NCBI GenBank assembly: GCA_034434235.1
Contig: DAOTZV010000182.1
Span: 10,713-74,712 of the forward strand
Source: Anaerolineae bacterium
GTDB taxonomy: Bacteria > Chloroflexota > Anaerolineae > CG2-30-64-16
Reading direction: 5' to 3'
DNA: 64,000 bases
A program made the translations under genes and the position numbers. Shown here piece by piece: positions 25,434 to 36,781 of this stretch. The notes beneath the pieces are model-generated. The model was not told the origin of the DNA. It made no database searches and saw nothing but the letters and a program-made list of their open reading frames with translations. Within the stretch, counting starts at the first letter, position 1; the number at the start of each line of letters is the position of its first letter.

Positions 25434-26276
25434 ATGAAACTCACCCGTCATGCGACCGCAGGAGCGTTCCTGGCCCGCGCCCGGGCCGCCCTGGAGCGTC
25501 AGGAAGCCTTCAACAACCTGATGCTCGGGGTGGCCACGCGCCTGGACGAAGACCCCGAACGGATCAAAACGCCTCCCTATCTGGCGACGGTCGAGGAAGG
25601 CGATGCGCTGTTGGCCGCGGCGGTCATGACGCCGCCCCATCGGGTCATCGTCCACAGCGAGAGCACGGACCCTGCTCCGCTCCGCCTGATCGCGCATGAT
25701 CTGCACGCGAACGGCTGGGCGCCGCCCGGCGTCATCGGCCCGGCCGCGACGGCGCGGGCCTTCGCCGCGGCGTGGACTGCCGCGGCGGGCGGCTCCTTTC
25801 GCCTCTTGCGCCACGAGCGTGTCTACGAGCTGCGCCAGGTCAACCCGCCGCCCCCGACGCCGGGCGCGTTGCGCGTTGCGGTCGAGGCCGATCAGGCGCT
25901 GGTGGCGCAATGGTTCTATGCCTTCATGCACGAGGTGGGCATGGGAGGCACGGCCGAAGAGCTGGCCGAGCTGGCCGCGCAACGCATTGACCGCCGCGAG
26001 ATCTTTCTCTGGGACGACGGTGGGCCGGTATCTCTGGCCGGCCGCGGTCGCCACACCGCGCACGGCGTGGCGATCGGCCCGGTGTATACGCCGCCGGCGC
26101 TCCGCGGCCGCGGCTACGCCAGCGCGTGCGTCGCGGCCCTGAGCCAGCAGATGCTCGACGCCGGCTGGCGTTTCTGCGCGCTCTTCACCGACCTGGCCAA
26201 TCCGACCTCCAACCGCATCTACCAGAAGATCGGCTATCGGCCTCTCGGCGATTTCGACGAGTACGGGTTCACGTGA
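25434..26276 (+). CDS. GNAT-family N-acetyltransferase (two-lobed)
   Basis: C-terminal acetyl-CoA-binding motif RGRGYASACVAAL...NRIYQKIGY. Confidence 0.65.
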   Translation: MKLTRHATAGAFLARARAALERQEAFNNLMLGVATRLDEDPERIKTPPYLATVEEGDALLAAAVMTPPHRVIVHSESTDPAPLRLIAHDLHANGWAPPGVIGPAATARAFAAAWTAAAGGSFRLLRHERVYELRQVNPPPPTPGALRVAVEADQALVAQWFYAFMHEVGMGGTAEELAELAAQRIDRREIFLWDDGGPVSLAGRGRHTAHGVAIGPVYTPPALRGRGYASACVAALSQQMLDAGWRFCALFTDLANPTSNRIYQKIGYRPLGDFDEYGFT

Positions 26277-26290
26277 TGGGAGGTTTCCCG

Positions 26291-28714
26291 ATGCCCAATC
26301 TGCTCCAGACCGGCCTTTCGTGGTTGGCCCGCGGCCGCCAGCCGCGGCTCAAGGGAACGATCCGCCTGAAAGGTTTGCGCGCCCCGGTGGAGATCATCCG
26401 CGATCGCTGGGGCGTGCCGCACATCTACGCGACCAACATGGCCGACCTGCTCTTCGCGCAGGGATTCGTTCATGCGCAGGATCGCCTGTGGCAGATGGAG
26501 TTCAACCGCCGGCTGGTGGCCGGCCGGCTCTCGGAGGTGATCGGTCCGGCCACGGTGCCGGCCGACCGCTGGCTGCGCATCCTGGGCTTGCGCCGCGCGG
26601 CCGAGGCCGGCCTGGCGCTCCTCCGGCCCGAAGTGCGTGCGGAGCTGGATGCTTATGTCGCAGGCGTCAACGCCTTCATCGCCCGCGGCCCCCTGCCGAT
26701 CGAGTTCACCCTGTTGCGCTACCGGCCCGAGCCCTGGACGCTCGCCGATTCTCTGAGCTGGGCCAAGATGATGGCGTGGAGCCTTTCGATCAACTGGGAG
26801 ACCGAGCTCCTGCGCGCCCGGCTGATCGGCCGGCTTGGCCCCGAGCGCGCCGCCGAGCTGGAGGCCCCCTGGCCGACGCAATGGCCGACGATCATCCCGG
26901 AGGAGCTGCGCCAGGTATCGGCCGAACGCCTGGGCCGGCTGGCGCTGGAGCGGGCCGAGGCCGCGCGACGCTTCGTCGGCCCGGCCGCGCACGCCGGCCT
27001 GGGCAGCAACAACTGGGTCATCGCCGGCAGCCGTACGTTCAGCGGCAAGCCGCTGTTGGCCAACGACATGCACCTGCTGATGGGCATTCCGTGCATCTGG
27101 TACGAGAACCACCTGGTGTGCCAACCCGACGCCGGGGCCGATCCGGCCGACGCGCTGGAGGTGACCGGGGTCACCTTCCCCGGCACGCCGTATGTCGTCG
27201 CCGGCCACAACGCGCACGTTGCCTGGGGCTTCACGAACGGCTTCCCCGACGTGCAGGATCTCTACATGGAGCACCTGCGGCGCACCGACGACGGCCGGGT
27301 GCAATACGAGTTCCGGGGCGAATGGCACGACGCGGAGGTCTTGCGCGAAGTCATCCGCGTCAAAGGCGCGGCGCCGGTCACCGAAGAGGTGATCATCACG
27401 CGGCATGGGCCGATCATCAACGCGCTGGCGCCCGACCTGACGCGAGCGCTGTTGCCGCAGGAGGAGGAGCCGCCGCTGGCGTTGCGTTGGACCGCGCTGG
27501 AGCCCGATACGTTGATCCACGCACTGCGGGCGATGAACCGGGCGCGCTCGTGCCTGGAATTTCGCGAGGCGCTGCGCGAGTGGTCCGCGCCGATCCAGAA
27601 CACCGTCTATGCCGATACGGCCGGCCATATCGGCTACAGCTTTCCGGGCAAGGTGCCCATCCGGGCCAGGGGCGATGGCAGCGTGCCCGTGCCCGGCTGG
27701 ACGGGAGAATACGAGTGGGTGGGCTACGTGCCGTTCGACGCGCTGCCGCATCTCTACGACCCGCCGCAGGGCTACATCGTCACGGCCAACAACCGCGTGG
27801 TCGGCGACGACTATCCCTACTTCATTTCCCGCGAGTATTGCATGGGCGACCGGGCCCAGCGCATCGCCGAGCTGATCGCCGCGCGCGACAGGATCAACGT
27901 GGCCTACATCCGCCGCATGCAATTCGACCAGGTCTCGCCGACCGCCCGCGTGGTGGCGGGCCACATCGGCCGGCTGACGTGCGACGACCCCGAGCTGATG
28001 GCCGTGGCGCGGATGATGGCGGCGTGGGACGGCAATCTGGCCGTGGACAGCCCCCAGGCCGCGATCTATCAGGTGTTCATGCGCCGGATCATCGCACTGT
28101 TGTTGCGCGACCGGCTGGGGGAGGATCTCGCCGCGCGCTACGCGGGCAAGGGGCCGTTGCCGGTCCTGGCCGAGGGGAGCTTCTTCGGCCAGCGGGCATG
28201 GGAATGGGTACAACAGCTCCTGGCCATGGACGACTCGCCCTGGTTCGACCTGGGCCACGGCGAGCGCCGCAACGATGTGATTCGCCTGGCGCTGCGCGAG
28301 ACGGTGGACTTTCTGAAGGCGCGTTTGGGGCCCACGTCGGAGGATTGGGCCTGGGGCAAGCTGCACGTCTTGCGCTTCATCCATTTCGTGGGCCAGATGC
28401 CTGCGCTGGCGCCGCTCTTCAACCGCGGGCCGTTCGCGCTGGGCGGCGACGGCAACACCATCTGGGCCACCGGCAACCGCATGGACACGCTCGACTTCGA
28501 TCAGATCATCGGCCCGCCCTTCCGCCACATCTCAGACCTCGGCGACTGGAGCAACTCGTTCGGCCTGTTGGCGCCCGGCAATTCGGGCCGGCCGGGCAAT
28601 CGCCACTATGACGACCAGATCGAGGCCTGGTTCATGGGCGACTATCATCCGCTGCTCTTCGCGCGCGAGGACGTGGAGCGCGAGGCCGAGGCGCGCCTCC
28701 GGCTATTGCCCTGA
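26291..28714 (+). CDS. Penicillin acylase-family Ntn-hydrolase (S45), possibly an acyl-homoserine-lactone or beta-lactam acylase
   Basis: GVPHIYATNMADLLFAQGFVHAQDRLWQME, the GSNNW nucleophile region, ~807 aa. GGGAGG RBS. Confidence 0.8.
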   Translation: MPNLLQTGLSWLARGRQPRLKGTIRLKGLRAPVEIIRDRWGVPHIYATNMADLLFAQGFVHAQDRLWQMEFNRRLVAGRLSEVIGPATVPADRWLRILGLRRAAEAGLALLRPEVRAELDAYVAGVNAFIARGPLPIEFTLLRYRPEPWTLADSLSWAKMMAWSLSINWETELLRARLIGRLGPERAAELEAPWPTQWPTIIPEELRQVSAERLGRLALERAEAARRFVGPAAHAGLGSNNWVIAGSRTFSGKPLLANDMHLLMGIPCIWYENHLVCQPDAGADPADALEVTGVTFPGTPYVVAGHNAHVAWGFTNGFPDVQDLYMEHLRRTDDGRVQYEFRGEWHDAEVLREVIRVKGAAPVTEEVIITRHGPIINALAPDLTRALLPQEEEPPLALRWTALEPDTLIHALRAMNRARSCLEFREALREWSAPIQNTVYADTAGHIGYSFPGKVPIRARGDGSVPVPGWTGEYEWVGYVPFDALPHLYDPPQGYIVTANNRVVGDDYPYFISREYCMGDRAQRIAELIAARDRINVAYIRRMQFDQVSPTARVVAGHIGRLTCDDPELMAVARMMAAWDGNLAVDSPQAAIYQVFMRRIIALLLRDRLGEDLAARYAGKGPLPVLAEGSFFGQRAWEWVQQLLAMDDSPWFDLGHGERRNDVIRLALRETVDFLKARLGPTSEDWAWGKLHVLRFIHFVGQMPALAPLFNRGPFALGGDGNTIWATGNRMDTLDFDQIIGPPFRHISDLGDWSNSFGLLAPGNSGRPGNRHYDDQIEAWFMGDYHPLLFAREDVEREAEARLRLLP

Positions 28715-28715
28715 C

Positions 28716-28860
28716 CTGTAGGGCGAGATTTATCTCGCCCTACAGGCTATGGAGAGGCGAGATGAATCTCGCCCTACGCGCGTCTTTGGAGGGGCGAGAT
28801 GAATCTCGCCCTACGCGCGTCTTTGGAGAGGCGAGATGAATCTCGCCCTACACGCCTTCC
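28716..28860. repeat. Array of four related hairpin-containing repeats, with 37-bp units, between convergent genes
   Basis: CTGTAGGGCGAGAT-TT-ATCTCGCCCTACAG at 28716-28745. Then AGGCGAGATGAATCTCGCCCTACGCGCGTCTTTGGAG repeated ~2.9 times from 28755 to 28860. The last unit supplies the TAG stop of the receiver gene. Confidence 0.85.
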
Positions 28861-29300
28861 CCCGGCAGATGCACGATGCTCACCCAGAACTCCCGGATCT
28901 GCTTCACGACCTTGATGAACTGCTCCAGGTCCACCGGCTTGGAGATGTAGCAGTTCGCATGCAGATCATACGAGCGCAGGATGTCCTGCTCGGCCTCCGA
29001 GGTGGTCAGGATGACTACCGGGATGCGCCGCAGATCGGGATCGGCCTTGAGGATGGCCAGGCATTCGCGGCCGTCCATGCGGGGCATGTTCAGATCGAGC
29101 AGGATGAGATCGGGCCGGGGAGCATCCGCGTATTTCCCCTCGCGGCGCAGAAATTCCAGCGCCTCCACTCCGTCTGAAACCACAAAGAGACGATTGAGCA
29201 CCTTGCCGTTGCGCAACGCCTCTTGCGTCAGGCGCACGTCTCCGGGGTTGTCCTCGACGAGAAGGATGTCTATCGGCCTCAAGACTTTGGACGTGGCCAT
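28848..29300 (-). CDS. Stand-alone CheY-like response-regulator receiver domain protein
   Basis: LLVEDNPGD, phospho-acceptor D in LILLDLNMP, the T in ILTTS, conserved K in ISKP. AAGGAG RBS. It starts 33 nt after the stop of the upstream XPB-operon gene. Confidence 0.85.
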
Positions 29301-29333
29301 GTTCGACTCCTTGTGGGGTGCCAGATGAGAAAT

Positions 29334-31694
29334 TCACCGTTCCGTCAGTTCGACCCCGCGCTCGGCCAGCAGAACGCGCAGCGCGGCCACATCATCGGGT
29401 TGGACGAGCGCCAGGCCCAGGTTGGCGGCCGGCATGAAGGGCTGCATGTATTGCGCCAGGGCCGGATCGGCGCACAGCTCGTTTACCACGGCCTGATCGC
29501 GAAACTGGACCAGGGTGAACGTCTGGACCACCGCGTCGCCGTAGTGTTTGCTCCATGCCTTGATGCGCATTTGCAGCCCGGCCGGCACGCCGCCCAACGC
29601 GAGCGATTCCAGCCGGGCGATGATCCTGGTGGCATCGAGCCCGGCCGCGACGGCCCGGCGCACGCTGGAAGGCGTGATGCGCCAGCCGTCGGGGGTCTGA
29701 TCGGCCAGCGGGAACAGGTAGCCGTACACGTACAGGCTCGGCACCGCGTGGGCAAATTGGATGGCGCCATCGGCCGTCAGGGTGATGCTGGCCTTGGGGG
29801 CCTCTTCGGCGCTCGATGCGCGCACCGGCAGCTCGCCGGCCGCCAACAGGCGCTGCTCGATCAGATCCACCTTGTCGGCGTGTACCATGAGCGAGGTGGC
29901 ATCCACGCGCTTGATGATCGCCGCGTCCAAGACGGGATCCGCCATCAGATGCTCGGCCAGCTCGGCCGTGGCCGTCTGCACCCAGCCGACGCGCGGCCGG
30001 ACGACGATGCGCTCGAACGCGGCCTGCCATTCGAAGAGGCTGCGCAGGACGTTTTGCGGCATTGCCGCGCCGGTCGTGTTTTCCAGCCAGCGGATGATCT
30101 CGGCCACCTGCTGGCCGTTCTGCTGGGCGCGATAGACCGACGCGGCGGTCAGCTCGTATTCTATGGCCCGCTCGGCATTCAGCCGCGTCGCGAAGCTGTC
30201 GAGCCGGGCCAACACCGCATCGGAGATCGGATCGAAGGCGAAGATGTGAAAATTCGGCTGGACGACGACCCGGCCGGTCTCGGCGGGGATGGCGGGCGGC
30301 TCGGCGTCCAGGAGCAGCCAGCGCCCCATATCGGTCAGGCGCACCGCCTGCAAACCCGCGGGCGCGGCGCCCCCCGCGGCCGTCACCGGCCGCAGATAGC
30401 CCAGATCCACCAGCCCCAACCAGTAGAGCCCTTCGGTCAAGACCGCGCGAATGAAGGCCCCTTCCACGCCATCCCAGCCGGCCTCCAGATCCTGGGCATA
30501 CTTCTCCCATACCCAGCCCAGCGCGTTCTGCTGGTAAGGCGAGATAACCGAAGGACGGGAATAATAGTAATAAGAACTGGGGCGGTGTTCGGCGGTCTCC
30601 CGATCGACCAGGAACTCCTCGTCGTGATCGTGCAGATAATCGGAGATGGCGTCGAGCGAGATCCACTCCGCGCCGTCGCGCGCGAAGCGCGCCAGCAGAT
30701 CGAGCACCGTGCGCCGCGCCTTTACCACCGGATTCGGCGCAAAATCGATCACGGAGCCGCTGGCCCGCGTCGAGCCGGGGTCGTAAGTGGCCCACAGCTC
30801 GTGCCACCAGGCGCCATCGCGCCAGCTCTGGTAACAGGTTTGCACGCGCTGCGTGGCGCCGCTCTCCCAGAACTCCATGTCCGGCGCAGCGGTCAACGTG
30901 TTGGCGTTGGCTCCTTCGCCGGCGACGAGGAGGCCCAACGCCATCAGCAGGCGACGCAAGAAAAAGATGCGCCGGAAGTCGCTCTCCTTGCTGCCGGTCG
31001 AATAGGTTTCGGTCACCAGGAGCTGGCCGCTCAATCGCTTGACATCGGCCGCCCGGAGCAGTCCGGCGTTGGTGAGCTGCAACGGCGACTCGCGCGCGGC
31101 GCTCCACATCAGATAGAGGTCGCGCTGGCAGGTGCGGGCCGAGCCGGGGAGCACATGGGCGATCGACGGCTCGGTGCGCGGGAGCGAGGCTACCGGCGGC
31201 AGGTGGACGGCCACTTCCTGCGGGATGTAGACGAAGCGGCCGCCATCGAAGCCGAGCTTGGCAGTGGTGATGGTGCCTGCGGACAGGCTGTGCGTCCAGA
31301 TCAGCCCGTATTTGAGCAGCGCGGCCAATACCTCCTCGAACGTCATGGGGTCGCTGGCGTGCTCCGGGTGTTGCCCATAAGAGGAATATGTCGCGCGGCG
31401 CTTGCCGGGAGCAGGCTCCTTGACGATGCCGGCGCGCGTGAGCAGCGCGCGATAGCGCTCGGTGCGCAGCTCGCCGTCGGCCCGTTGCAACACTTCGAGC
31501 GCCTTGCGACAACGATTGTTGATCTGACGTAAGGCCGTCTGGATGCGCTGGGGATCGGCGATCAGTTTGGCCCATAGCGCGGCCTTCTCATCCTTGAACT
31601 TCGGGATATCGCGGACGCCGGCCGTGCGCAGAATGGTATTCAGATCGTTGGCTCGAAAGGCATCAATGGCCTGGCGCAAAGGTGGAGGGGTCAT
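29334..31694 (-). CDS. XPB-associated large protein 2 (uncharacterised, ~786 aa)
   Basis: Start ATG overlaps the stop of the upstream gene (ATGA). The C-terminal modules look loosely like the XPB N-terminal winged-helix/DRD region. No catalytic motif recognised. Confidence 0.6.
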   Translation of the reverse strand: MTPPPLRQAIDAFRANDLNTILRTAGVRDIPKFKDEKAALWAKLIADPQRIQTALRQINNRCRKALEVLQRADGELRTERYRALLTRAGIVKEPAPGKRRATYSSYGQHPEHASDPMTFEEVLAALLKYGLIWTHSLSAGTITTAKLGFDGGRFVYIPQEVAVHLPPVASLPRTEPSIAHVLPGSARTCQRDLYLMWSAARESPLQLTNAGLLRAADVKRLSGQLLVTETYSTGSKESDFRRIFFLRRLLMALGLLVAGEGANANTLTAAPDMEFWESGATQRVQTCYQSWRDGAWWHELWATYDPGSTRASGSVIDFAPNPVVKARRTVLDLLARFARDGAEWISLDAISDYLHDHDEEFLVDRETAEHRPSSYYYYSRPSVISPYQQNALGWVWEKYAQDLEAGWDGVEGAFIRAVLTEGLYWLGLVDLGYLRPVTAAGGAAPAGLQAVRLTDMGRWLLLDAEPPAIPAETGRVVVQPNFHIFAFDPISDAVLARLDSFATRLNAERAIEYELTAASVYRAQQNGQQVAEIIRWLENTTGAAMPQNVLRSLFEWQAAFERIVVRPRVGWVQTATAELAEHLMADPVLDAAIIKRVDATSLMVHADKVDLIEQRLLAAGELPVRASSAEEAPKASITLTADGAIQFAHAVPSLYVYGYLFPLADQTPDGWRITPSSVRRAVAAGLDATRIIARLESLALGGVPAGLQMRIKAWSKHYGDAVVQTFTLVQFRDQAVVNELCADPALAQYMQPFMPAANLGLALVQPDDVAALRVLLAERGVELTER

Positions 31695-33514
31695 GAAAGC
31701 ACCTGCGGAGTATAGCCTTTGCGGCGCAGCTCTTCGACGAGGACAGGGACCGTTTCGGGCCGCAACACGACCAGATGCCGCGAGGAGATCGGGTAACAAT
31801 CGCCCTGGCTCAGGCCGATGGACGCCTGCACTTCGGACATGGTTTGCTCATCGCCGAACTCGATCACGGCCAGGTTGTCATAGAGCTGATGGCGCCCCAG
31901 GCGCCCCTGCCATTCCTTCAGCCGGTTTTGCATTTCGGCGGGCAACGGAAAACCGGCCTCGGCGAACGCCTGGATCACCTGATCGGCCGATTGCCCGCTG
32001 CGCAGCGTCTGCCGGAAGGCCGCGGGGTCAAGCGCATAGAGGATCGCCTGGCGATCGCGCGTGACTTCGGAAGCGATCTTCAAGATGAGCTGGCGCAGCT
32101 CGCCGGTCTGCCACGTGTTGCGCAGGCTCAACCGGCCGTCGGGAAGGAAGCTCAACATGTCGGCCGGAAGCCGCTGCGGTCCGCTCGGCGTTGCCTGTTC
32201 GCCCGGCCGGCTGATCGCCATCACGCGCTCGTTGGTCACCGCCATCTGGATGAAGCCCAACCAGTACGCCGGCCCCAGCCATCCCTCGAAGAGGCCGCCG
32301 AAGAGGTCGTTCCAGACGCGACGCTGGAAGTGCTGCGGATCGAGCTGCTCCTCGCCGTCATACCAGGCCCAACCGGCATAAACAGAAAGGGCAAAAGTGA
32401 GGTGGTCGCGACGCAAGCGATGGATCAGGTCCAACCAGCGCGTCGTGCTGATCCACACTTCGGGCTTGATGGCCGAGAGCAAACCGGCCAGCCAAACGCG
32501 CTGGCTTTGCACCTGCCGATCCAGATACTCGCGATTGCTCCAGCCGGCATTCTGGCGCAGGCTGAATCGGTTCTGCGTGGTCAGGAAGAAATCGAGCTCA
32601 TCCCAGGTCATCAACGACCGCACCGCGGCCGGAATGTCGAGCGGCCAGCCTTCCAGCCACCAGTGGTGTAGTTGAGCGCGCCGCGCGGCCGGCGATAGGC
32701 CACGCCAGACATCTATCTGTGTCGCGTCGGTCAGGAGATATGGCTTGCCCCCCGTCTCTTGCACGTGCAGCAGCTTGCCGACCGCCAACAGAGATAACAG
32801 GGTGCGTGCCAGGGCCCGTTCTTCGGCCGCGTTGTAGCCCCAGGCGGCCAACTGCTCGTCGGCCACGATCCCGGCGTGCGGTTCCGCGCGCTGATAGGCC
32901 ACCGATACATTGCGCCCCGGTTGCGCGACGGTGACCGGGCGTAGCAGGGCCGTGCGCTTCACTTCGGGCCGATCGGTCTCGACAGCCGCCAACAGCCGCG
33001 CGATGTGATCGTCGAGGAAGCCCGGTGCCGGCGCCGGCATCACGTCCGCGGCCAGGTCACGATAGACCAGGCCCGGCGCATCCGTCTCCGGCAACCAGTC
33101 GAGGTAGATCGTCGGCACATGAAAGGCGCCGGTAATGGAATCCGTCAAGATGAATAGCTTCTGATGAAGATCGCCGAGGGCCTGCGTCACGGCCTCTTTG
33201 GTCGTCCGCAGCTCTTCGGCGATCTCCAGGATCGGCGCCAGGACTTCGACCTGGCCGTCGTTCCTGCTCAGACGGCCGAGCCAGATCAGGATCTTGCGGT
33301 GCAGGGATGGAAGCTGCTCGAACCCCGCCGACATCTCGGCGGCGTTGGTCAGATGCTCCATGATCCCCTGGACGACATCGGCCTTGGCCGTGCCCCGAAG
33401 CGACCATCCCCACGCGCGCGCGGCGCTGCGCAGGTCTTGCAAGACGATCGCCTGCAATGCGGTGCGGAGCTGGTGCAGGGCATTGGCTCGGGAGGGCGAT
33501 TCCGTCGTGTTCAC
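31691..33514 (-). CDS. XPB-associated large protein 1 (uncharacterised, ~607 aa)
   Basis: GTG start overlaps the XPB stop (GTGA). Trp-rich central region. C-terminus (...RHLVVLRPETVPVLVEELRRKGY) resembles the XPB N-terminal module. Confidence 0.6.
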   Translation of the reverse strand: MNTTESPSRANALHQLRTALQAIVLQDLRSAARAWGWSLRGTAKADVVQGIMEHLTNAAEMSAGFEQLPSLHRKILIWLGRLSRNDGQVEVLAPILEIAEELRTTKEAVTQALGDLHQKLFILTDSITGAFHVPTIYLDWLPETDAPGLVYRDLAADVMPAPAPGFLDDHIARLLAAVETDRPEVKRTALLRPVTVAQPGRNVSVAYQRAEPHAGIVADEQLAAWGYNAAEERALARTLLSLLAVGKLLHVQETGGKPYLLTDATQIDVWRGLSPAARRAQLHHWWLEGWPLDIPAAVRSLMTWDELDFFLTTQNRFSLRQNAGWSNREYLDRQVQSQRVWLAGLLSAIKPEVWISTTRWLDLIHRLRRDHLTFALSVYAGWAWYDGEEQLDPQHFQRRVWNDLFGGLFEGWLGPAYWLGFIQMAVTNERVMAISRPGEQATPSGPQRLPADMLSFLPDGRLSLRNTWQTGELRQLILKIASEVTRDRQAILYALDPAAFRQTLRSGQSADQVIQAFAEAGFPLPAEMQNRLKEWQGRLGRHQLYDNLAVIEFGDEQTMSEVQASIGLSQGDCYPISSRHLVVLRPETVPVLVEELRRKGYTPQVLS

Positions 33515-35292
33515 CAGTGCGCCTCGTCGTGTGCCGGATCGAAGTCGGCCAGGTCGTCTTCGTACAGGATCTCGTATTTGTAGCCCTGCTCGGTCAGGAA
33601 CATCTGCCGGTGCGCGCCGTAGAGCTGATCCTTGGTATCGCGCATGACGATGGCGTAGAAGTGGGCCGGCCGGCCGTCGCTCTTCGGCCGCAGGATGCGG
33701 CCCAGGCGCTGCGCCTCTTCCTGTCGCGAGCCGAAGGTGCCGCTGATCTCGATGGCGACGCTGACATCGGGCAGGTCAATGGCGAAGTTGGCGACCTTCG
33801 AGACGACCAGCAGCCGCAATGTGCCTTCGCGCATCTGCTGGTAGAGCTTCTGGCGCTCGCGCACCGGCGTCTTGCCCGTGAGGAGCGGCGCGTTGAAGCG
33901 CTTCGCGGCCTCTTCGAGCTGGTCCAGGTAGGTGCCGATGATCAGGATCTGGTCGTCGGGGTGCTTGGCGATCAACTGCTCGACCACGGGCAGCTTGGCG
34001 GGATCGGTGGCGGCGATGGCATATTGCAGCTTGCTGTCGGCCAGGGCATATTCCATCCGGCGCTCGCGCGACATGCTCAGGCGCACTTCGTGGCAGTGCG
34101 CGGTGGCGATCCATCCCTGGCGCTCCAGGTCTTTCCACGGCACGTCGTACTTCTTGGGGCCGATGAGCGCGAACACGTCCTCTTCGCGGCCGTCTTCGCG
34201 CACCAGGGTGGCCGTGAGGCCCAGACGACGCTTGCCTTGCAGCTCGGCCGTCATGCGGAACACCGGCGCCGGCAGCAGGTGCACCTCGTCGTAGACGATC
34301 AGGCCCCAATTGCGCTCGTTGAACAGCCGGAAATGGGGGAAGTCCTCGATGGAGAGCGGCTTCGGCGCGCCGTTCTCATCCCACCCCAGCTCATCTTCCT
34401 TGCCGTTCCGGCCGCGGCGCTTGTGATAGGTCAGGATCTGGTAGGTGGTGACGGTGATCGGCCGGATCTCTTTGACATCGCCGGTGTACTCGCCGATTTC
34501 GTCGGAGGTAAGCGATGTCTTGTCGAGCAGCTCCTCGATCCACTGGCGCACCGCGACGGTGTTGGTGGTGAGGATCAGCGTGTTGGTTTGCAGGCGGTCC
34601 ATGGCGCCCATGCCGACCATCGTCTTGCCGGCGCCGCACGGCAACACGATGACGCCCGAGCCGCCCTGCGGCGCGCCGTTGGCGTGGAATGTGTCCACGG
34701 CATCTTGCTGATAGTGCCGCAGGCGGAACACCTCGCCGGTCGTGCGCCGGGCCGGCAAGAGCCGAAACGAGATCGGCGCGCCTTCCACGTAGCCGGCCAG
34801 GTCTTCGGCCGGATAGCCGATGTCTACCAGCGCCTTCTTGATGTGGCCGCGCATGGCGGGGTTGACGCGCACCGTGCGCGGATCTATCTCTTCGAGGATG
34901 AACTGGCGGACCTTGCGCTGGCGGCTCACCTCCATCATCAGGAGGGGATCGTCGGCCGTCAGGAGCAGCGCGCCGGTGGGATCTTTGTGCAGCTTGACCC
35001 GGCCGAACCGGCTGACGTAATCGCGCACGTCGGCCTGGATGTTGCCGGGCACATCGTATTTGCTGTATTGCGCCAGGCTCGCCAGGATGGCGTCGGCCGT
35101 GAGGCCGCTGGCGGCCGCGTTCCAGAGGGAAAGCGGCGACAGCCGATAGGTATGGATATGTTCGGGGCTTTTTTCCAGCTCAGCGAAGCGCGCCAGCGCG
35201 TCGCGCGCTTCGCTGTAGAGCGGGTTATCTACTTCGAGCAGCACCGTCCGGTCGCTCTGCACGACCATCGGGTTCAACGGGTTAACAGCCAT
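33511..35292 (-). CDS. XPB/ERCC3/Ssl2-type superfamily-2 DNA helicase (bacterial XPB homologue)
   Basis: N-terminal damage-recognition-like domain, Walker A PCGAGKT, DEVH box (VYDEVHLLPA), RED-like and thumb regions, HD2 with RPKSDGRPAHFYA. Confidence 0.9.
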   Translation of the reverse strand: MAVNPLNPMVVQSDRTVLLEVDNPLYSEARDALARFAELEKSPEHIHTYRLSPLSLWNAAASGLTADAILASLAQYSKYDVPGNIQADVRDYVSRFGRVKLHKDPTGALLLTADDPLLMMEVSRQRKVRQFILEEIDPRTVRVNPAMRGHIKKALVDIGYPAEDLAGYVEGAPISFRLLPARRTTGEVFRLRHYQQDAVDTFHANGAPQGGSGVIVLPCGAGKTMVGMGAMDRLQTNTLILTTNTVAVRQWIEELLDKTSLTSDEIGEYTGDVKEIRPITVTTYQILTYHKRRGRNGKEDELGWDENGAPKPLSIEDFPHFRLFNERNWGLIVYDEVHLLPAPVFRMTAELQGKRRLGLTATLVREDGREEDVFALIGPKKYDVPWKDLERQGWIATAHCHEVRLSMSRERRMEYALADSKLQYAIAATDPAKLPVVEQLIAKHPDDQILIIGTYLDQLEEAAKRFNAPLLTGKTPVRERQKLYQQMREGTLRLLVVSKVANFAIDLPDVSVAIEISGTFGSRQEEAQRLGRILRPKSDGRPAHFYAIVMRDTKDQLYGAHRQMFLTEQGYKYEILYEDDLADFDPAHDEAHW

Positions 35293-35299
35293 ACAAACT

Positions 35300-35340
35300 T
35301 GCTTATCCTTTGACTAAAACATCAGTACAAATGATAAGCA
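35300..35340. promoter_or_regulatory. Inverted repeat TGCTTATC-N25-GATAAGCA overlapping the -10 and leader of the XPB operon; candidate operator
   Basis: 8-bp perfect arms at 35300-35307 and 35333-35340. Confidence 0.4.
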
Positions 35341-35365
35341 TACCGCATTTCGTTATTATTCGCAA
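35337..35365 (-). promoter_or_regulatory. Candidate promoter of the XPB operon inside an AT-rich island
   Basis: Read on the minus strand: TTGCGA-N17-TATGCT. The island 35293-35381 is ~40% GC against ~67% background. Confidence 0.35.
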
Positions 35366-35381
35366 CTTATCGAAAGCCTCT

Positions 35382-35765
35382 CTACCGATCGGCCGCGACG
35401 CGCGTCAGGCGCACCGGATCGCCATCGCGCACGGCCCGGAACGCGGTCGCGTCGTCGAGCACCCGGCCCAGGATGTTGACCGGGCTGTAGGCGCGCGGCG
35501 CGGGGCCGCTGCTGGCGGGGGTCGGGCCGAAGAAGATGCAGAAGGCATGGCCCGGCGGCCAGTAGCCCAGCTCGCCCACGGCCACGTCGTCGCGCGCGTC
35601 GGCGGCCTGGCGCGCGACGACGGGGATCTCGAAGTAGATCTCGTCGCCCCAGGTATTGGCGCGGCCCTCGATGGGCAACGCATCCCACACCTGCTGCGCG
35701 GTCGGGCTGTCGTTCAGTTCGGCCGGCAATGAGACCGGGCCGGCCGTGATCAGGATGCGCTGCAT
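35382..35765 (-). CDS. Cyclophilin-like-fold protein (DUF3830 / Cyclophil_like family)
   Basis: 127 aa, motif ELGYWPPGHAFCIFFGPTP. Recognised from memory of the family only. Confidence 0.5.
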   Translation of the reverse strand: MQRILITAGPVSLPAELNDSPTAQQVWDALPIEGRANTWGDEIYFEIPVVARQAADARDDVAVGELGYWPPGHAFCIFFGPTPASSGPAPRAYSPVNILGRVLDDATAFRAVRDGDPVRLTRVAADR

Positions 35766-35776
35766 CGGTCCCTCCT

Positions 35777-36781
35777 TCAGCGGATGCGGCTATCCGCGCC
35801 CGATTGCCACAGATCGGCGTTGGCTCCCAGCTTTGCCTTGACGGGCTGCGTCAAGCGGTCCAGCTCGGCCAACACGTCGGCCGAGAGCTGGCGGCCGATT
35901 CCGCGCAGCGAGTCCTCGAGCTGCGCGACCGTGCGCGTGCCCGCGATCACCGTGGCGACCCCCTCTTGCGCCGCCACCCAGGCCAGCGCCAGATCGGCCA
36001 TCGGCATGCCGAGCTCGTCGGCAAGGCGGGCAATGCCGTTGATGGCGGCGAACACCTCCTCTTCGGCGCCGGGCTCGCCGTGACGGGTGCCGGGCCGCGC
36101 GCTGCTGAAGTGCCGGGTGCGTCGGCGGATGGGCGGGATCTCGTCGGCGCTGCGCCAACGGCCGGTGAGCAGCCCCTGCATCAGCGGCATGTACGCGGTC
36201 ACCGCCACACCTCGTTGCCGACACAGGGGCAAGATCTCGAACTCGATGGCCCGATGCAACAGGCTATAGCCGAGCTGATTTACCTCGATGGCCGCGCCGG
36301 TGGCCAGCGCTTCTTGCAGTTGTTGCACGCCGAAGTTGCTCACGCCGATGGCGCGGATTTTGCCTTCGGCGCGCAGATCGGCCAGCGCGCCGAAGGCGTC
36401 GGCCACCGGATAGTCGGTGATGGGCCAGTGCACCATGTAGATGTCTATCACATCGGTGCCCAGCCGGCGCAGGCTCGCCTCGCAGTGGCGGCGCAGGGTC
36501 TTCGGCTCGGTGTTTTGCGGGCTGATCTTCGTGCCGATGATGGCCTCTCCGCGTCGGCCCTTCAGCGCCCGGCCCAACGCCTCCTCGCTGCGGCCGTCGT
36601 TGTAACCCTCGGCCGTGTCGAAGTAGTTGGCCCCGTGGGCCAGCGCCCGCGCGATGATCTCGGCGGCCTCGCGATCGTCGTGGGGACCCCAATAATCCCC
36701 CTCCTGGCCGCCGAAGGACCAGCAGCCCAGCCCCAAGAGGGGAAGCCGGATGCCCGATGGAACAAGAACGGTTGTCCTCAT
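35777..36781 (-). CDS. Aldo/keto reductase
   Basis: GLGCWSFGG, YFDTAEGY, GTKISP, IGVSNF. The start overlaps the stop of the upstream dipeptidase (ATGA). The longer ORF 35777..37945 is an in-frame artefact. Confidence 0.85.
   Translation of the reverse strand: MRTTVLVPSGIRLPLLGLGCWSFGGQEGDYWGPHDDREAAEIIARALAHGANYFDTAEGYNDGRSEEALGRALKGRRGEAIIGTKISPQNTEPKTLRRHCEASLRRLGTDVIDIYMVHWPITDYPVADAFGALADLRAEGKIRAIGVSNFGVQQLQEALATGAAIEVNQLGYSLLHRAIEFEILPLCRQRGVAVTAYMPLMQGLLTGRWRSADEIPPIRRRTRHFSSARPGTRHGEPGAEEEVFAAINGIARLADELGMPMADLALAWVAAQEGVATVIAGTRTVAQLEDSLRGIGRQLSADVLAELDRLTQPVKAKLGANADLWQSGADSRIR

What the first reader, a model, noticed from the sequence alone, without database searches (positions are those of the whole stretch)
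28848..35381. Four-gene operon: bacterial XPB helicase, two large uncharacterised partner proteins and a CheY-like receiver
Seen in sequence:
- Four genes sit on the minus strand. XPB (33511-35292), protein 1 (607 aa) and protein 2 (786 aa) are joined by GTGA/ATGA start-stop overlaps. The receiver follows after 33 nt with its own AAGGAG RBS.
- The operon starts with the only strongly AT-rich island in the window (35293-35381, ~40% GC), carrying a plausible promoter and an inverted repeat.
- It ends in an array of tandem hairpin repeats.

Established knowledge: XPB/ERCC3 is a eukaryotic/archaeal NER/TFIIH helicase. In archaea it works with the Bax1 nuclease. Bacterial homologues (for example mycobacterial XPB) sit next to large conserved hypothetical genes whose function is unknown.

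Inference:
- The partner proteins have no motif I can assign. Their C-terminal segments loosely resemble the XPB N-terminal DNA-damage-recognition/winged-helix module.
- A phospho-receiver in the same transcription unit suggests signal-controlled activity.
- The module could be a DNA-repair or DNA-surveillance (defence-like) system of a kind not characterised in bacteria.
Basis: partly seen in the sequence, partly recalled or inferred. Interest (0 to 1): 0.8.

Follow-up and report, generated by a model that had tools for sequence, protein, structure and literature searches.

The report
Bacterial XPB helicase with p52-like partners
A Chloroflexota bacterium encodes the DNA helicase XPB together with two proteins whose predicted folds resemble p52/Tfb2, the subunit that holds and regulates XPB in the eukaryotic TFIIH complex. 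This gives a concrete, testable idea of how the poorly understood bacterial XPB works.

Summary
Four minus-strand genes lie at the stated coordinates, with GTGA and ATGA start/stop overlaps, the most AT-rich spot in the window upstream, and a tandem hairpin array downstream.

- **Conserved unit.** The conserved unit has three genes, not four. XPB lies upstream of P2 in 42 of 46 Chloroflexota loci, and a P1-like gene lies directly upstream of P2 in 45 of 46. The receiver follows P2 in only 2 of 52 loci. No other neighbour is conserved.
- **Partner proteins.** P1 (607 aa) and P2 (786 aa) are paralogues. For both AlphaFold models, the best PDB matches are almost exclusively the TFIIH subunit p52/Tfb2, aligned over most of its length, followed by the XPB N-terminal domain.
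- **Repeated domain.** The locus carries four mutually homologous XPB-NTD/p52-"clutch" domains.
- **What was not found.** There is no nuclease domain, no defence-system signature and no phage or plasmid copy of P2.

Best explanation: a bacterial XPB–p52-like translocase module, in which P1 and P2 bind and tune XPB through clutch/NTD pairing as p52/p8 do in TFIIH. Homology is well supported; complex formation and function are inferred. The receiver and the REP-like hairpins are lineage-specific neighbours. I found no publication describing bacterial p52-like XPB partners.

The parts
35293..35381 (-). AT-rich intergenic region upstream of XPB (34.8% GC), holding the promoter and 5' UTR
   Evidence: It is the lowest-GC 89-nt stretch in the window. 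Sequence read.
35337..35365 (-). Sigma-70-type promoter TTGCGA-17 nt-TATGCT
   Evidence: The AGTTG (-35 region) and TAT.CT (-10) positions are invariant in an alignment of 7 related upstream regions. A TTGnnn-N16-18-TAnnnT motif lies within 95 nt upstream of XPB in about 27 of 46 loci. The generic scan did not pick this pair; it reported a weaker one, TAGAGA-18-AATAAT.
35300..35340 (-). 5'-UTR hairpin whose 3' arm covers the ribosome-binding site (AAAGGA)
   Evidence: 13-nt arms, 92% complementary. RNAalifold on 5 close relatives gives 13 pairs, 2 of them with compensatory changes. Seen only in the closest clade; weak evidence.
33511..35292 (-). XPB helicase (593 aa): N-terminal PF13625 domain (aa 10-136), SF2 motor with GAGKT, DEVH and RED motifs
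   Evidence: NCBIfam NF045503 scores 844 bits against a cut-off of 610. Pfam hits are ERCC3_RAD25_C, Helicase_C_3 and ResIII. Motifs read in the translation.
34885..35265 (-). XPB N-terminal domain (aa 10-136), the proposed docking site for the partners
   Evidence: PF13625 E 2.6e-36. Homologous to the three partner domains by hhalign, 86-95% probability.
31691..33514 (-). P1 (607 aa): p52/Tfb2-like protein, paralogue of P2. Its GTG start overlaps the XPB stop (GTGA).
   Evidence: - hhalign P1 vs P2: probability 97.7%, E 1.9e-12 over 538 columns.
- AF2 model: pLDDT 77.6.
- Foldseek: the top 20 PDB hits are all chains taken to be p52/Tfb2, best 8.4e-9, with 320-630 aligned columns.
- No sequence-level PDB hit.
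- Overlap read.
31820..32110 (-). P1 clutch/NTD-type domain (aa 469-565)
   Evidence: PF13625 scores 34.7 bits against a cut-off of 34.2. It is the only part of P1 that the window P1 sequence still detects by tblastn in the clades with short (~310 aa) or long (~750-790 aa) P1.
29334..31694 (-). P2 (786 aa): p52/Tfb2-like protein with an extra C-terminal XPB-NTD-like domain. Its ATG overlaps the P1 stop (ATGA).
   Evidence: - AF2 model: pLDDT 86.1.
- Foldseek: all 34 hits with E<=1e-3 are TFIIH p52/Tfb2 or XPB chains.
- Overlap read.
29904..30269 (-). P2 domain 1 (aa 476-597), clutch-type
   Evidence: PF13625 profile positions 1-124 of 125. Weak Pfam Tfb2 hit: aa 471-539 against profile 286-354 of 358, E 0.0024. 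Weak TIGR00625 tfb2 hit, E 0.0021.
29364..29774 (-). P2 domain 2 (aa 641-777), XPB-NTD-type
   Evidence: The P2 family profile hits the human XPB N-terminal domain (8ebt_A res 25-172, 6nmi_A res 43-163) at E 1e-5 to 1e-4. Of the partner domains it is the closest to the window XPB NTD (hhalign 95.4%).
28848..29300 (-). Stand-alone receiver (150 aa): neighbour, probably co-transcribed here, not part of the conserved module
   Evidence: PF00072 E 5.5e-21. The acceptor-Asp context LLDLNMP is present. It lies downstream of P2 in only 2 of 52 loci.
28722..28855 (.). Array of 3.7 copies of a 37-nt REP-like hairpin unit between the convergent receiver and penicillin-amidase genes; a likely transcript end
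   Evidence: - TRF score 205.
- RNA fold z = -8.55.
- Absent from the 66 related loci held at that point.
- The same 21-mer is present in 35 metagenome contigs.

Best explanation
The conserved unit is a three-gene operon, XPB-P1-P2, with its own sigma-70-type promoter.

P1 and P2 are paralogous bacterial relatives of the TFIIH subunit p52/Tfb2. Each has a helical/winged-helix scaffold followed by a 'clutch' domain of the same fold as the XPB N-terminal domain. P2 carries one further XPB-NTD-like domain.

By analogy with TFIIH, the clutch-type domains of P1 and/or P2 would pair beta-sheet to beta-sheet with the XPB N-terminal domain. P2's extra NTD-like domain could occupy the remaining clutch. 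In TFIIH the p52 clutch forms a pseudo-symmetric dimer with the XPB NTD, and p52/p8 both activates and limits the XPB ATPase.

The result would be an XPB-P1-P2 complex in which the partners hold the two RecA lobes in a productive geometry, set the ATPase/translocase rate, and use the winged-helix array to bind DNA or other factors. The module would act as a chromosomal DNA translocase/helicase in DNA repair or DNA-structure processing.

The receiver gene and the hairpin array are lineage-specific neighbours.

- **Shown:** gene order, conservation, paralogy, domain homology, fold similarity to p52.
- **Inferred:** physical complex, pairing geometry, effect on the ATPase, cellular role.
For: **Conservation**
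- XPB lies upstream on the same strand in 42 of 46 loci, and a P1-like gene lies directly upstream of P2 in 45 of 46, across Anaerolineae, Caldilineales and Chloroflexaceae.
- A distant metagenome member shows the same order.
- No other gene is conserved on either side; the largest cluster covers 6 loci.
- 4-nt start/stop overlaps suggest translational coupling (the same P1/P2 overlap is seen in many loci).

**Paralogy**
- hhalign P1 vs P2 gives 97.7% probability, E 1.9e-12.

**Likeness to p52**
- Two independent AF2 models (pLDDT 86.1 and 77.6) were searched against 350,542 PDB chains.
- P2: all 34 hits at E<=1e-3 are TFIIH p52/Tfb2 or XPB chains. The p52 alignments mostly span 430-650 columns.
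- P1: the top 20 hits are all p52/Tfb2.
- Weak sequence-level Tfb2 hits fall exactly on the clutch.
- The P2 profile hits the human XPB NTD at E 1e-5.
- Four mutually homologous NTD/clutch domains are present.

**Mechanistic precedent**
- The p52 clutch and the XPB NTD share a fold and form the pseudo-symmetric dimer that recruits XPB (PMC6422496).
- p52/p8 is the 'master regulator' of the XPB ATPase (PMC7708078).

**Generality**
- XPB sits beside or near a distantly homologous PF13625 protein in Deinococcus, Paenibacillus, Tsukamurella, Actinomyces and Acaryochloris.
Against: - No interaction was tested.
- Global superposition on p52 is poor (TM 0.2-0.3, rmsd about 25 A). The similarity is in domain folds and their order, not in rigid arrangement. 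No residue-level alignment was returned, so the domain-by-domain mapping is inferred.
- Pfam Tfb2 is far below its cut-off (17.3 against 34.5 bits). It is seen in only 3 of 40 family members at E<=0.01.
- The N-terminal 470 aa have no sequence-level PDB match.
- Identification of most Foldseek chains as p52 (chains D, 2, 3, 4, Z and C of TFIIH-containing entries) rests on my knowledge of those entries. Only 6trs and 6tru are named as p52/Tfb2 by the tools.
- No p8, p34, p44, p62 or XPD counterpart is linked, so the partners cannot act as a bridge to a TFIIH-like core.
- Four loci have P1-P2 without an adjacent XPB.
- The cellular role is not addressed by any data here.
Confidence: 0.62

Rival explanations
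1. A four-gene, signal-controlled unit: phosphorylation of the receiver switches the XPB-partner machine on or off.
For: In this genome the receiver starts 33 nt after P2, with no terminator-like hairpin between them, so co-transcription is likely. The receiver keeps the acceptor-Asp context. The two closest relatives also have it downstream.
Against: It lies downstream of P2 in only 2 of 52 loci, at 126-147 nt in those relatives. Elsewhere the position is taken by unrelated genes such as Wzy_C, an acetyltransferase or a lipoate ligase. The receiver has no output domain, and the regex found no kinase motif in the window.
Confidence: 0.06
2. An anti-phage or anti-plasmid defence system, in which XPB translocates on foreign DNA and P1/P2 act as sensor or effector.
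For: SF2 helicases with large unknown partners are common in defence systems. XPB gives partial hits to the PADLOC PbeA helicase models (E 4.5e-21, helicase core only).
Against: - No PADLOC hit for P1, P2 or the receiver.
- P2 is absent from the plasmid, phage and viral collections.
- The flanks are housekeeping genes that differ between genomes, with no defence island or mobile-element genes.
- Conservation is broad across the phylum, with XPB at 60-97% identity.
Confidence: 0.07
3. A helicase-nuclease pair like archaeal XPB-Bax1: P1 or P2 hides a diverged nuclease that cuts the DNA that XPB opens.
For: The archaeal precedent of XPB working with an operon-encoded nuclease. P1 and P2 are large, with about 470 aa lacking any sequence-level annotation.
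Against: No nuclease family or fold appears among the significant hits. The N-terminal parts match winged-helix domains and p52. Invariant columns of the families are dominated by W, L, G, R and F rather than an acidic catalytic constellation.
Confidence: 0.08
4. The partners share only the XPB-NTD-type domain with p52, and the rest is a generic winged-helix array. They are DNA-binding specificity or loading factors, not p52-like regulators.
Against: Generic winged-helix arrays should bring other multi-winged-helix proteins to the top of Foldseek. Instead the significant lists for two models that are only 18% identical are exclusively TFIIH p52 and XPB. The clutch-less half of p52 aligns over 158 residues.
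Confidence: 0.15

Closest known systems
TFIIH XPB-p52(Tfb2)-p8(Tfb5) translocase sub-module of eukaryotes
   Same: - An XPB helicase with an N-terminal domain, plus a partner that carries a domain of the same fold (the clutch).
- Precedent for pairing of homologous domains and for ATPase control (PMC6422496, PMC7708078).
   Different: - Two large paralogous partners instead of p52 plus the small p8.
- P2 has an additional XPB-NTD-like domain.
- The partners are 150-320 aa longer than p52.
- No linked p34, p44, p62 or XPD, so there is no TFIIH core to bridge to.
- Sequence similarity is below family thresholds.
- Operon-encoded, in a bacterium.
Bacterial XPB (e.g. Mycobacterium tuberculosis Rv0861c) and its neighbouring 'helicase-associated domain-containing protein'
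   Same: The same helicase family (NF045503). The same kind of PF13625 partner lies beside or near XPB in Actinomycetota, Deinococcota, Bacillota and Cyanobacteriota.
   Different: - Those phyla show one partner; Chloroflexota have two paralogues in fixed order.
- In actinobacteria the partner can be separated from XPB or divergent.
- Published work treats XPB alone (PMC3353954). The six papers that mention Rv0862c do not study its function, judging by their titles and abstracts. That Rv0862c is the Mtb partner is from my memory and was not tested.
Archaeal XPB-Bax1 helicase-nuclease
   Same: XPB encoded next to a dedicated partner that modulates its ATPase.
   Different: Bax1 is a nuclease that binds the XPB thumb/HD2 region. 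P1 and P2 show no nuclease fold and instead carry NTD/clutch domains.
Stand-alone CheY-like receivers of two-component systems
   Same: The fourth gene is a canonical PF00072 receiver.
   Different: It has no output domain, no kinase nearby by regex, and no conserved link to the XPB module.

Membership tests
Bacterial DNA repair helicase XPB (NCBIfam NF045503) | Score above the curated equivalog cut-off (610 bits) | tested here: met
   844.3 bits.
Bacterial DNA repair helicase XPB (NCBIfam NF045503) | SF2 motor motifs (Walker A GxGKT, DExH) and the XPB-specific RED motif | tested here: met
   GAGKT, DEVH and REDGRE were read in the translation. ERCC3_RAD25_C E 1.2e-43.
PF13625 Helicase_C_3 / 'helicase-associated domain-containing protein' | Pfam gathering score of 34.2 bits | tested here: met
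   P2 scores 109 bits in two stretches. P1 scores 34.7 bits, which is borderline. All 40 P2-family members hit.
TFIIH p52/Tfb2 (GTF2H4) | Sequence membership: Pfam PF03849 (cut-off 34.5 bits) or TIGR00625 (cut-off 320.7 bits) | tested here: not met
   P2 scores 17.3 bits on PF03849 (E 0.0024) and 17.1 bits on TIGR00625. Only 3 of 40 members hit at E<=0.01. P1 has no hit.
TFIIH p52/Tfb2 (GTF2H4) | Overall fold and domain order (NTD, MD1, MD2/clutch, CTD; PMC7708078) | tested here: met
   - Foldseek to p52 chains: P2 2.3e-7 and P1 8.4e-9, mostly with 430-650 aligned columns.
- 6trs_B: 5.4e-5 for P2 and 6.2e-5 for P1.
- Caveat: TM is only 0.2-0.3, and no residue-level mapping was returned.
TFIIH p52/Tfb2 (GTF2H4) | C-terminal domain that pairs with a p8/Tfb5 subunit | tested here: inconclusive
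   Only weak hits to Tfb5/Tfb2-CTD were found (3dom, 3dgp: probability 0.96-0.99 but E about 0.5). There is no small p8-like gene in the window. A 115-aa gene in Deinococcus matches P2 profile positions 565-628.
TFIIH p52/Tfb2 (GTF2H4) | Clutch domain binds the XPB N-terminal domain and modulates the ATPase | not testable with these tools
   Inferred from domain homology and operon linkage.
TFIIH p52/Tfb2 (GTF2H4) | Bridges XPB to a p34/p44/p62/XPD core | tested here: not met
   No conserved neighbour beyond the three genes. No vWA, p62 or XPD-type genes appear in the annotated loci.
Archaeal XPB-Bax1 | Partner is a Bax1-type nuclease | tested here: not met
   No Bax1 or nuclease family or fold was found for P1 or P2.
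Known anti-phage defence systems (PADLOC-DB 2.0) | Component proteins match defence-system models, in a defence or mobile context | tested here: not met
   - No hit for P1, P2 or the receiver; XPB matches only the helicase core of PbeA.
- P2 is absent from plasmids, phages and viral contigs.
- The flanks are housekeeping genes.
Two-component response regulator (receiver, PF00072) | Receiver fold with the acceptor Asp; a cognate kinase | tested here: inconclusive
   The receiver domain is met (75.3 bits; the LLDLNMP site). A crude regex found no kinase motif in the 64 kb, so the partner kinase is unknown.

The most novel reading that the evidence does not exclude
Bacteria possess a genuine counterpart of the TFIIH XPB-p52-p8 sub-module. 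XPB, P1 and P2 would form a heterotrimer held together by pseudo-symmetric pairs of NTD/clutch-type domains: four such domains, giving two pairs. P1 would play the role of the second, p8-like subunit. The pairing principle that recruits and throttles XPB in eukaryotic transcription and NER would then predate TFIIH and be shared with, or have been acquired from, bacteria. If so, the long-obscure function of bacterial XPB becomes directly testable. The origin of p52, whose domains were reported in 2020 to have no structural homologues, would also be traced outside eukaryotes.
Probability: 0.4. Interest if true: 0.8.

Novelty: new variant of a known kind. Interest (0 to 1): 0.62.

Why it matters
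[quoted passage not shown] A 2026 review still calls the function of XPB in bacteria 'elusive' (PMC13024598), and biochemistry has been done on the helicase alone (PMC3353954). If its conserved operon partners are p52-like, bacterial XPB has probably been studied without its obligatory subunits. That would explain weak or odd activities and suggests immediate experiments: co-purification, and ATPase/translocase assays with and without the partners.
- **Outgroups for p52.** The authors of the p52 crystal structure found no structural relatives for p52's NTD, MD1 and MD2 domains (PMC7708078). These bacterial proteins supply outgroups, which bears on how the TFIIH XPB-p52-p8 sub-module arose.
- **A simpler unit.** The finding removes a misleading lead, the receiver and 'defence system' idea, and reduces the unit to three genes.

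Tried and rejected
1. **Word-indexed homologue search for P1.** It returned only 12 proteins, and repeating it with a 24-sequence alignment returned the same 12.
2. **The listing of cluster members on 10 distant P2 relatives.** No names or taxa came back.
3. **afdb50 fold search.** This would have given UniProt names and taxa, but the library was not available.
4. **Sequence-profile searches of PDB.** The P1 family and the P2 N-terminal 470 aa gave no p52 hit, only noise and a Crp-type winged-helix match at E 0.05. The likeness to p52 outside the clutch is therefore purely structural.
5. **Literature searches.** Searches for bacterial p52-like XPB partners, Rv0862c and the evolutionary origin of TFIIH found no relevant paper.
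6. **Rfam on 28000-36000.** No match.
7. **Generic promoter scan.** It missed the conserved promoter and reported a weaker pair; the alignment of upstream regions found the real one.
8. **Ideas rejected.**
   - Receiver-controlled operon.
   - Defence system.
   - Bax1-like nuclease.
   - The hairpin array as an operon-specific element or a CRISPR-like array. The repeats are contiguous with no unique spacers, and the motif is dispersed in 35 contigs.
9. **Haloarchaeal plasmid XPB-like helicases.** One was checked for a partner (Haloterrigena). None was annotated beside it.

Full report

Yes. The ORF list and translations give four minus-strand genes at the stated coordinates:
- XPB, 33511-35292, 593 aa
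- P1, 31691-33514, 607 aa, GTG start
- P2, 29334-31694, 786 aa from the ATG
- a receiver, 28848-29300, 150 aa

The junctions were read directly. 'CAC TGG TGA' with GTG in the +2 register gives the GTGA overlap, and 'TCA TGA CC' gives the ATGA overlap. The receiver starts 33 nt after P2 with AAGGAG 7 nt upstream.

The helicase scores 844 bits on the NCBIfam XPB equivalog, cut-off 610. It carries GAGKT, DEVH and RED motifs. The receiver is a canonical PF00072 domain.

The upstream island 35293-35381 is 34.8% GC in a 66.7% GC window. It is the most AT-rich 89-nt stretch of the 64 kb.

The 3' end carries 3.7 tandem copies of a 37-nt hairpin unit. TRF scores it 205, the fold z-score is -8.55, and there are 4 matches where chance expects 0.

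**2. What is the unit?**

The organism is a Chloroflexota (Anaerolineae-type) bacterium. All named relatives of P2 come from such MAGs.

I fetched 63 loci from species-representative genomes plus several metagenome contigs and located the four proteins by tblastn.
- XPB lies upstream on the same strand in 42 of 46 loci with enough flank.
- A P1-like gene sits directly upstream of P2 in 45 of 46.
- The receiver follows P2 in only 2 of 52 loci. Both are the closest relatives, L004 and L006.

Clustering all ORFs within 2.5 kb on either side found no other conserved neighbour; the largest cluster covers 6 loci. Annotated contigs show unrelated genes after P2, including Wzy_C, an acetyltransferase and a lipoate ligase.

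So the conserved unit is XPB-P1-P2. It has its own promoter. The AGTTG (-35) and TAT.CT (-10) positions are invariant in seven aligned upstream regions. In the window this reads TTGCGA-17-TATGCT at 35365..35337. A sigma-70-type motif is found upstream of XPB in about 27 of 46 loci.

The flanking genes in the window are a penicillin amidase (convergent), a cyclophilin-like protein, an aldo/keto reductase and an M20 peptidase. This is ordinary chromosomal context.

**3. What are P1 and P2?**

They are paralogues. hhalign of the two family alignments gives 97.7% probability, E 1.9e-12. P1 22-606 aligns with P2 6-637, and P2 adds a C-terminal domain.

At the sequence level, only the C-terminal parts are recognisable.
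- PF13625 (the XPB N-terminal 'Helicase_C_3' domain) hits P2 twice and P1 once.
- P2 has marginal Tfb2 hits exactly over the region that corresponds to the p52 clutch.
- The P2 family profile finds the human XPB N-terminal domain in PDB at E 1e-5.
- Sub-alignments of XPB 1-140, P1 455-607, P2 470-628 and P2 636-786 are all mutually homologous, 86-97% probability. The locus therefore encodes four copies of this domain type.

AlphaFold2 models were good for P2 (pLDDT 86.1, 40 sequences) and fair for P1 (77.6, 12 sequences). Against 350,542 PDB chains, Foldseek returned the following.
- For P2, 34 hits at E<=1e-3, every one a TFIIH subunit. These are p52/Tfb2 chains (best 2.3e-7, alignments mostly of 430-650 columns) and XPB chains through the N-terminal domain.
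- For P1, the top 20 hits are all p52/Tfb2 chains (best 8.4e-9), followed by XPB.

Caveats:
- Global TM-scores are low (0.2-0.3) and rmsd is high. This is expected for flexible multi-domain chains, but it means the match concerns domain folds and their order, not rigid shape.
- No residue-level alignment was returned.
- Only 6trs and 6tru are explicitly named p52/Tfb2 by the tools. The identity of the other chains is from my knowledge of those entries.
- P1, and the N-terminal 470 aa of P2, have no sequence-level PDB hit.

**4. How it most likely works**

*Established knowledge.* In TFIIH the p52 clutch (MD2) has the same fold as the XPB N-terminal domain. The two form a pseudo-symmetric dimer that recruits XPB (PMC6422496). 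p52 MD2 and p8, together with the XPB NTE and DRD, form a lunate ring around the RecA lobes. p52/p8 both activates and limits the ATPase (PMC7708078).

*Inference for this locus.* XPB, P1 and P2 are made in fixed proportion through overlapping stop and start codons. They would assemble through pairs of NTD/clutch domains. The XPB NTD would pair with one partner's clutch, and P2's extra NTD-like domain with the other. The winged-helix scaffold would then contact DNA or other proteins, and the partners would set XPB's ATPase/translocase behaviour.

P1 evolves fastest. Its length varies between clades (about 310, 600 and 750-790 aa). With the window P1 as query, only its clutch-containing C-terminus is still detected in the short- and long-P1 clades. 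That is what one expects if this domain is the functional core.

The cellular role is not addressed by my data. DNA repair or processing is plausible, given the published helicase and annealing activities of mycobacterial XPB (PMC3353954).

**5. Alternatives**

- *Receiver control.* This is contradicted by the lack of conservation. The receiver is probably co-transcribed here but is a lineage-specific insertion. A regex for H-box and G1/G2 kinase motifs found nothing in the window.
- *Defence system.*
  - PADLOC gives no hit for P1, P2 or the receiver.
  - No effector domain was found.
  - P2 is absent from 72,556 plasmids, 50,697 phages and 2.9 million viral contigs.
  - The flanks are housekeeping genes.
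- *Bax1-like nuclease.* No nuclease family or fold was found.
- *Generic winged-helix array.* This does not explain why the significant Foldseek lists for two models with 18% identity are exclusively TFIIH p52 and XPB.

**6. Beyond Chloroflexota**

tblastn of XPB against plasmid-class replicons found XPB at about 50% identity in Actinomycetota, Deinococcota, Cyanobacteriota and Bacillota. In each record inspected, a 620-850-aa protein lies beside or near XPB. It is annotated 'helicase-associated domain-containing protein', or 'hypothetical' in Acaryochloris.
- Downstream in Deinococcus and Paenibacillus.
- Directly upstream in Acaryochloris.
- 3.5 kb upstream in Tsukamurella.
- Divergent in Actinomyces.

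These partners hit the P1/P2 HMMs at E 1e-7 to 1e-12, mainly through the clutch domain.

So the XPB-partner association is widespread and already visible in annotation. What is particular to Chloroflexota is the duplicated partner in fixed order. What appears new is the recognition that the partners are p52-like. Seven literature searches found no paper describing this. The library is incomplete, so prior description elsewhere cannot be excluded.

**7. Verdict**

It was right about XPB, the uncharacterised conserved partners and their resemblance to the XPB N-terminal module. It is not supported on the receiver or the defence idea.
- The best-supported explanation is a bacterial XPB-p52-like translocase module, a new variant of a known kind.

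My confidence by step:

| Claim | Confidence |
|---|---|
| P1 and P2 are homologous to p52 at fold level | ~0.85 |
| They form a complex with XPB through NTD/clutch pairing | ~0.6 |
| They regulate the ATPase as p52/p8 do | ~0.5 |

Interest is 0.62. A TFIIH/NER specialist would find full-length p52-like proteins in bacterial XPB operons unexpected, and the finding makes bacterial XPB function testable. The interaction and the role are still inferred, though, and the gene pairing itself was already annotated.

Noticed in passing
window 28722-28855: The hairpin unit (TAGGGCGAGATTCATCTCGCC core) is a dispersed element, not something specific to this operon. The exact 21-mer occurs in 35 metagenome contigs from several samples, sometimes 2-4 times per contig. 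It is absent from the 66 related XPB loci held at that point. It looks like a REP-like extragenic palindrome family of this lineage, here clustered between two convergent genes.
   Followed up: partly
window 35300-35340 (- strand): A 13-bp hairpin in the XPB 5' UTR pairs the region just after the -10 box with the ribosome-binding site (AAAGGA). In 5 close relatives, 2 of 13 pairs show compensatory changes. It may act in translational control or mRNA stability. It has no Rfam match.
   Followed up: partly
L070 7755-8102 (Deinococcus aquaticus pDATS01): A 115-aa hypothetical gene lies between XPB and the 805-aa partner. It matches the P2 family HMM at positions 565-628 (E 3e-8), the stretch just after the clutch. 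It is a candidate for a small p8/Tfb5-like subunit in a one-partner system.
   Followed up: no
L037, L041, L056, L062: These loci have P1-like plus P2-like gene pairs with no XPB within the fetched upstream flank (about 10 kb). L037 and L041 come from MAGs that also hold a complete XPB-P1-P2 locus (L026 and L011). They are therefore second, XPB-less copies of the partner pair.
   Followed up: partly
L034, L036, L038, L039, L043 versus L044-L061: P1 comes in three size classes: about 310 aa (Candidatus Amarolinea type), about 600 aa (the window's clade) and about 740-790 aa (Chloroflexaceae and others). With the window P1 as query, only the C-terminal clutch-type region is detected in the short and long classes. 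The long forms also match P2 over aa ~245-623.
   Followed up: partly
L032 and L054 (same MAG, CAVPXC01): One genome carries two complete XPB-P1-P2 loci, each with XPB at 77% identity to the window. Several reading frames are broken into pieces, probably through long-read assembly frameshifts.
   Followed up: no
L073 (Haloterrigena turkmenica pHTUR04): Haloarchaeal plasmids carry XPB-like helicases at about 32% identity. In the record inspected, the helicase sits next to type II/IV secretion ATPase genes and ParA, with no PF13625-type partner annotated. That is a different context from the bacterial module.
   Followed up: no
window 29223-31532 (+), 33457-35313 (+), 26234-28528 (-): Very long ORFs (618-769 aa) run antisense to P2, XPB and the amidase gene. 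This is the usual artefact of a 67% GC genome with few stop codons. I did not scan these antisense ORFs against any family library.
   Followed up: no
window 35382-35765 (-): A cyclophilin-like (PF04126) gene ends 89 nt upstream of XPB on the same strand. It is not conserved next to XPB in other loci, so read-through from it is not part of the module.
   Followed up: partly
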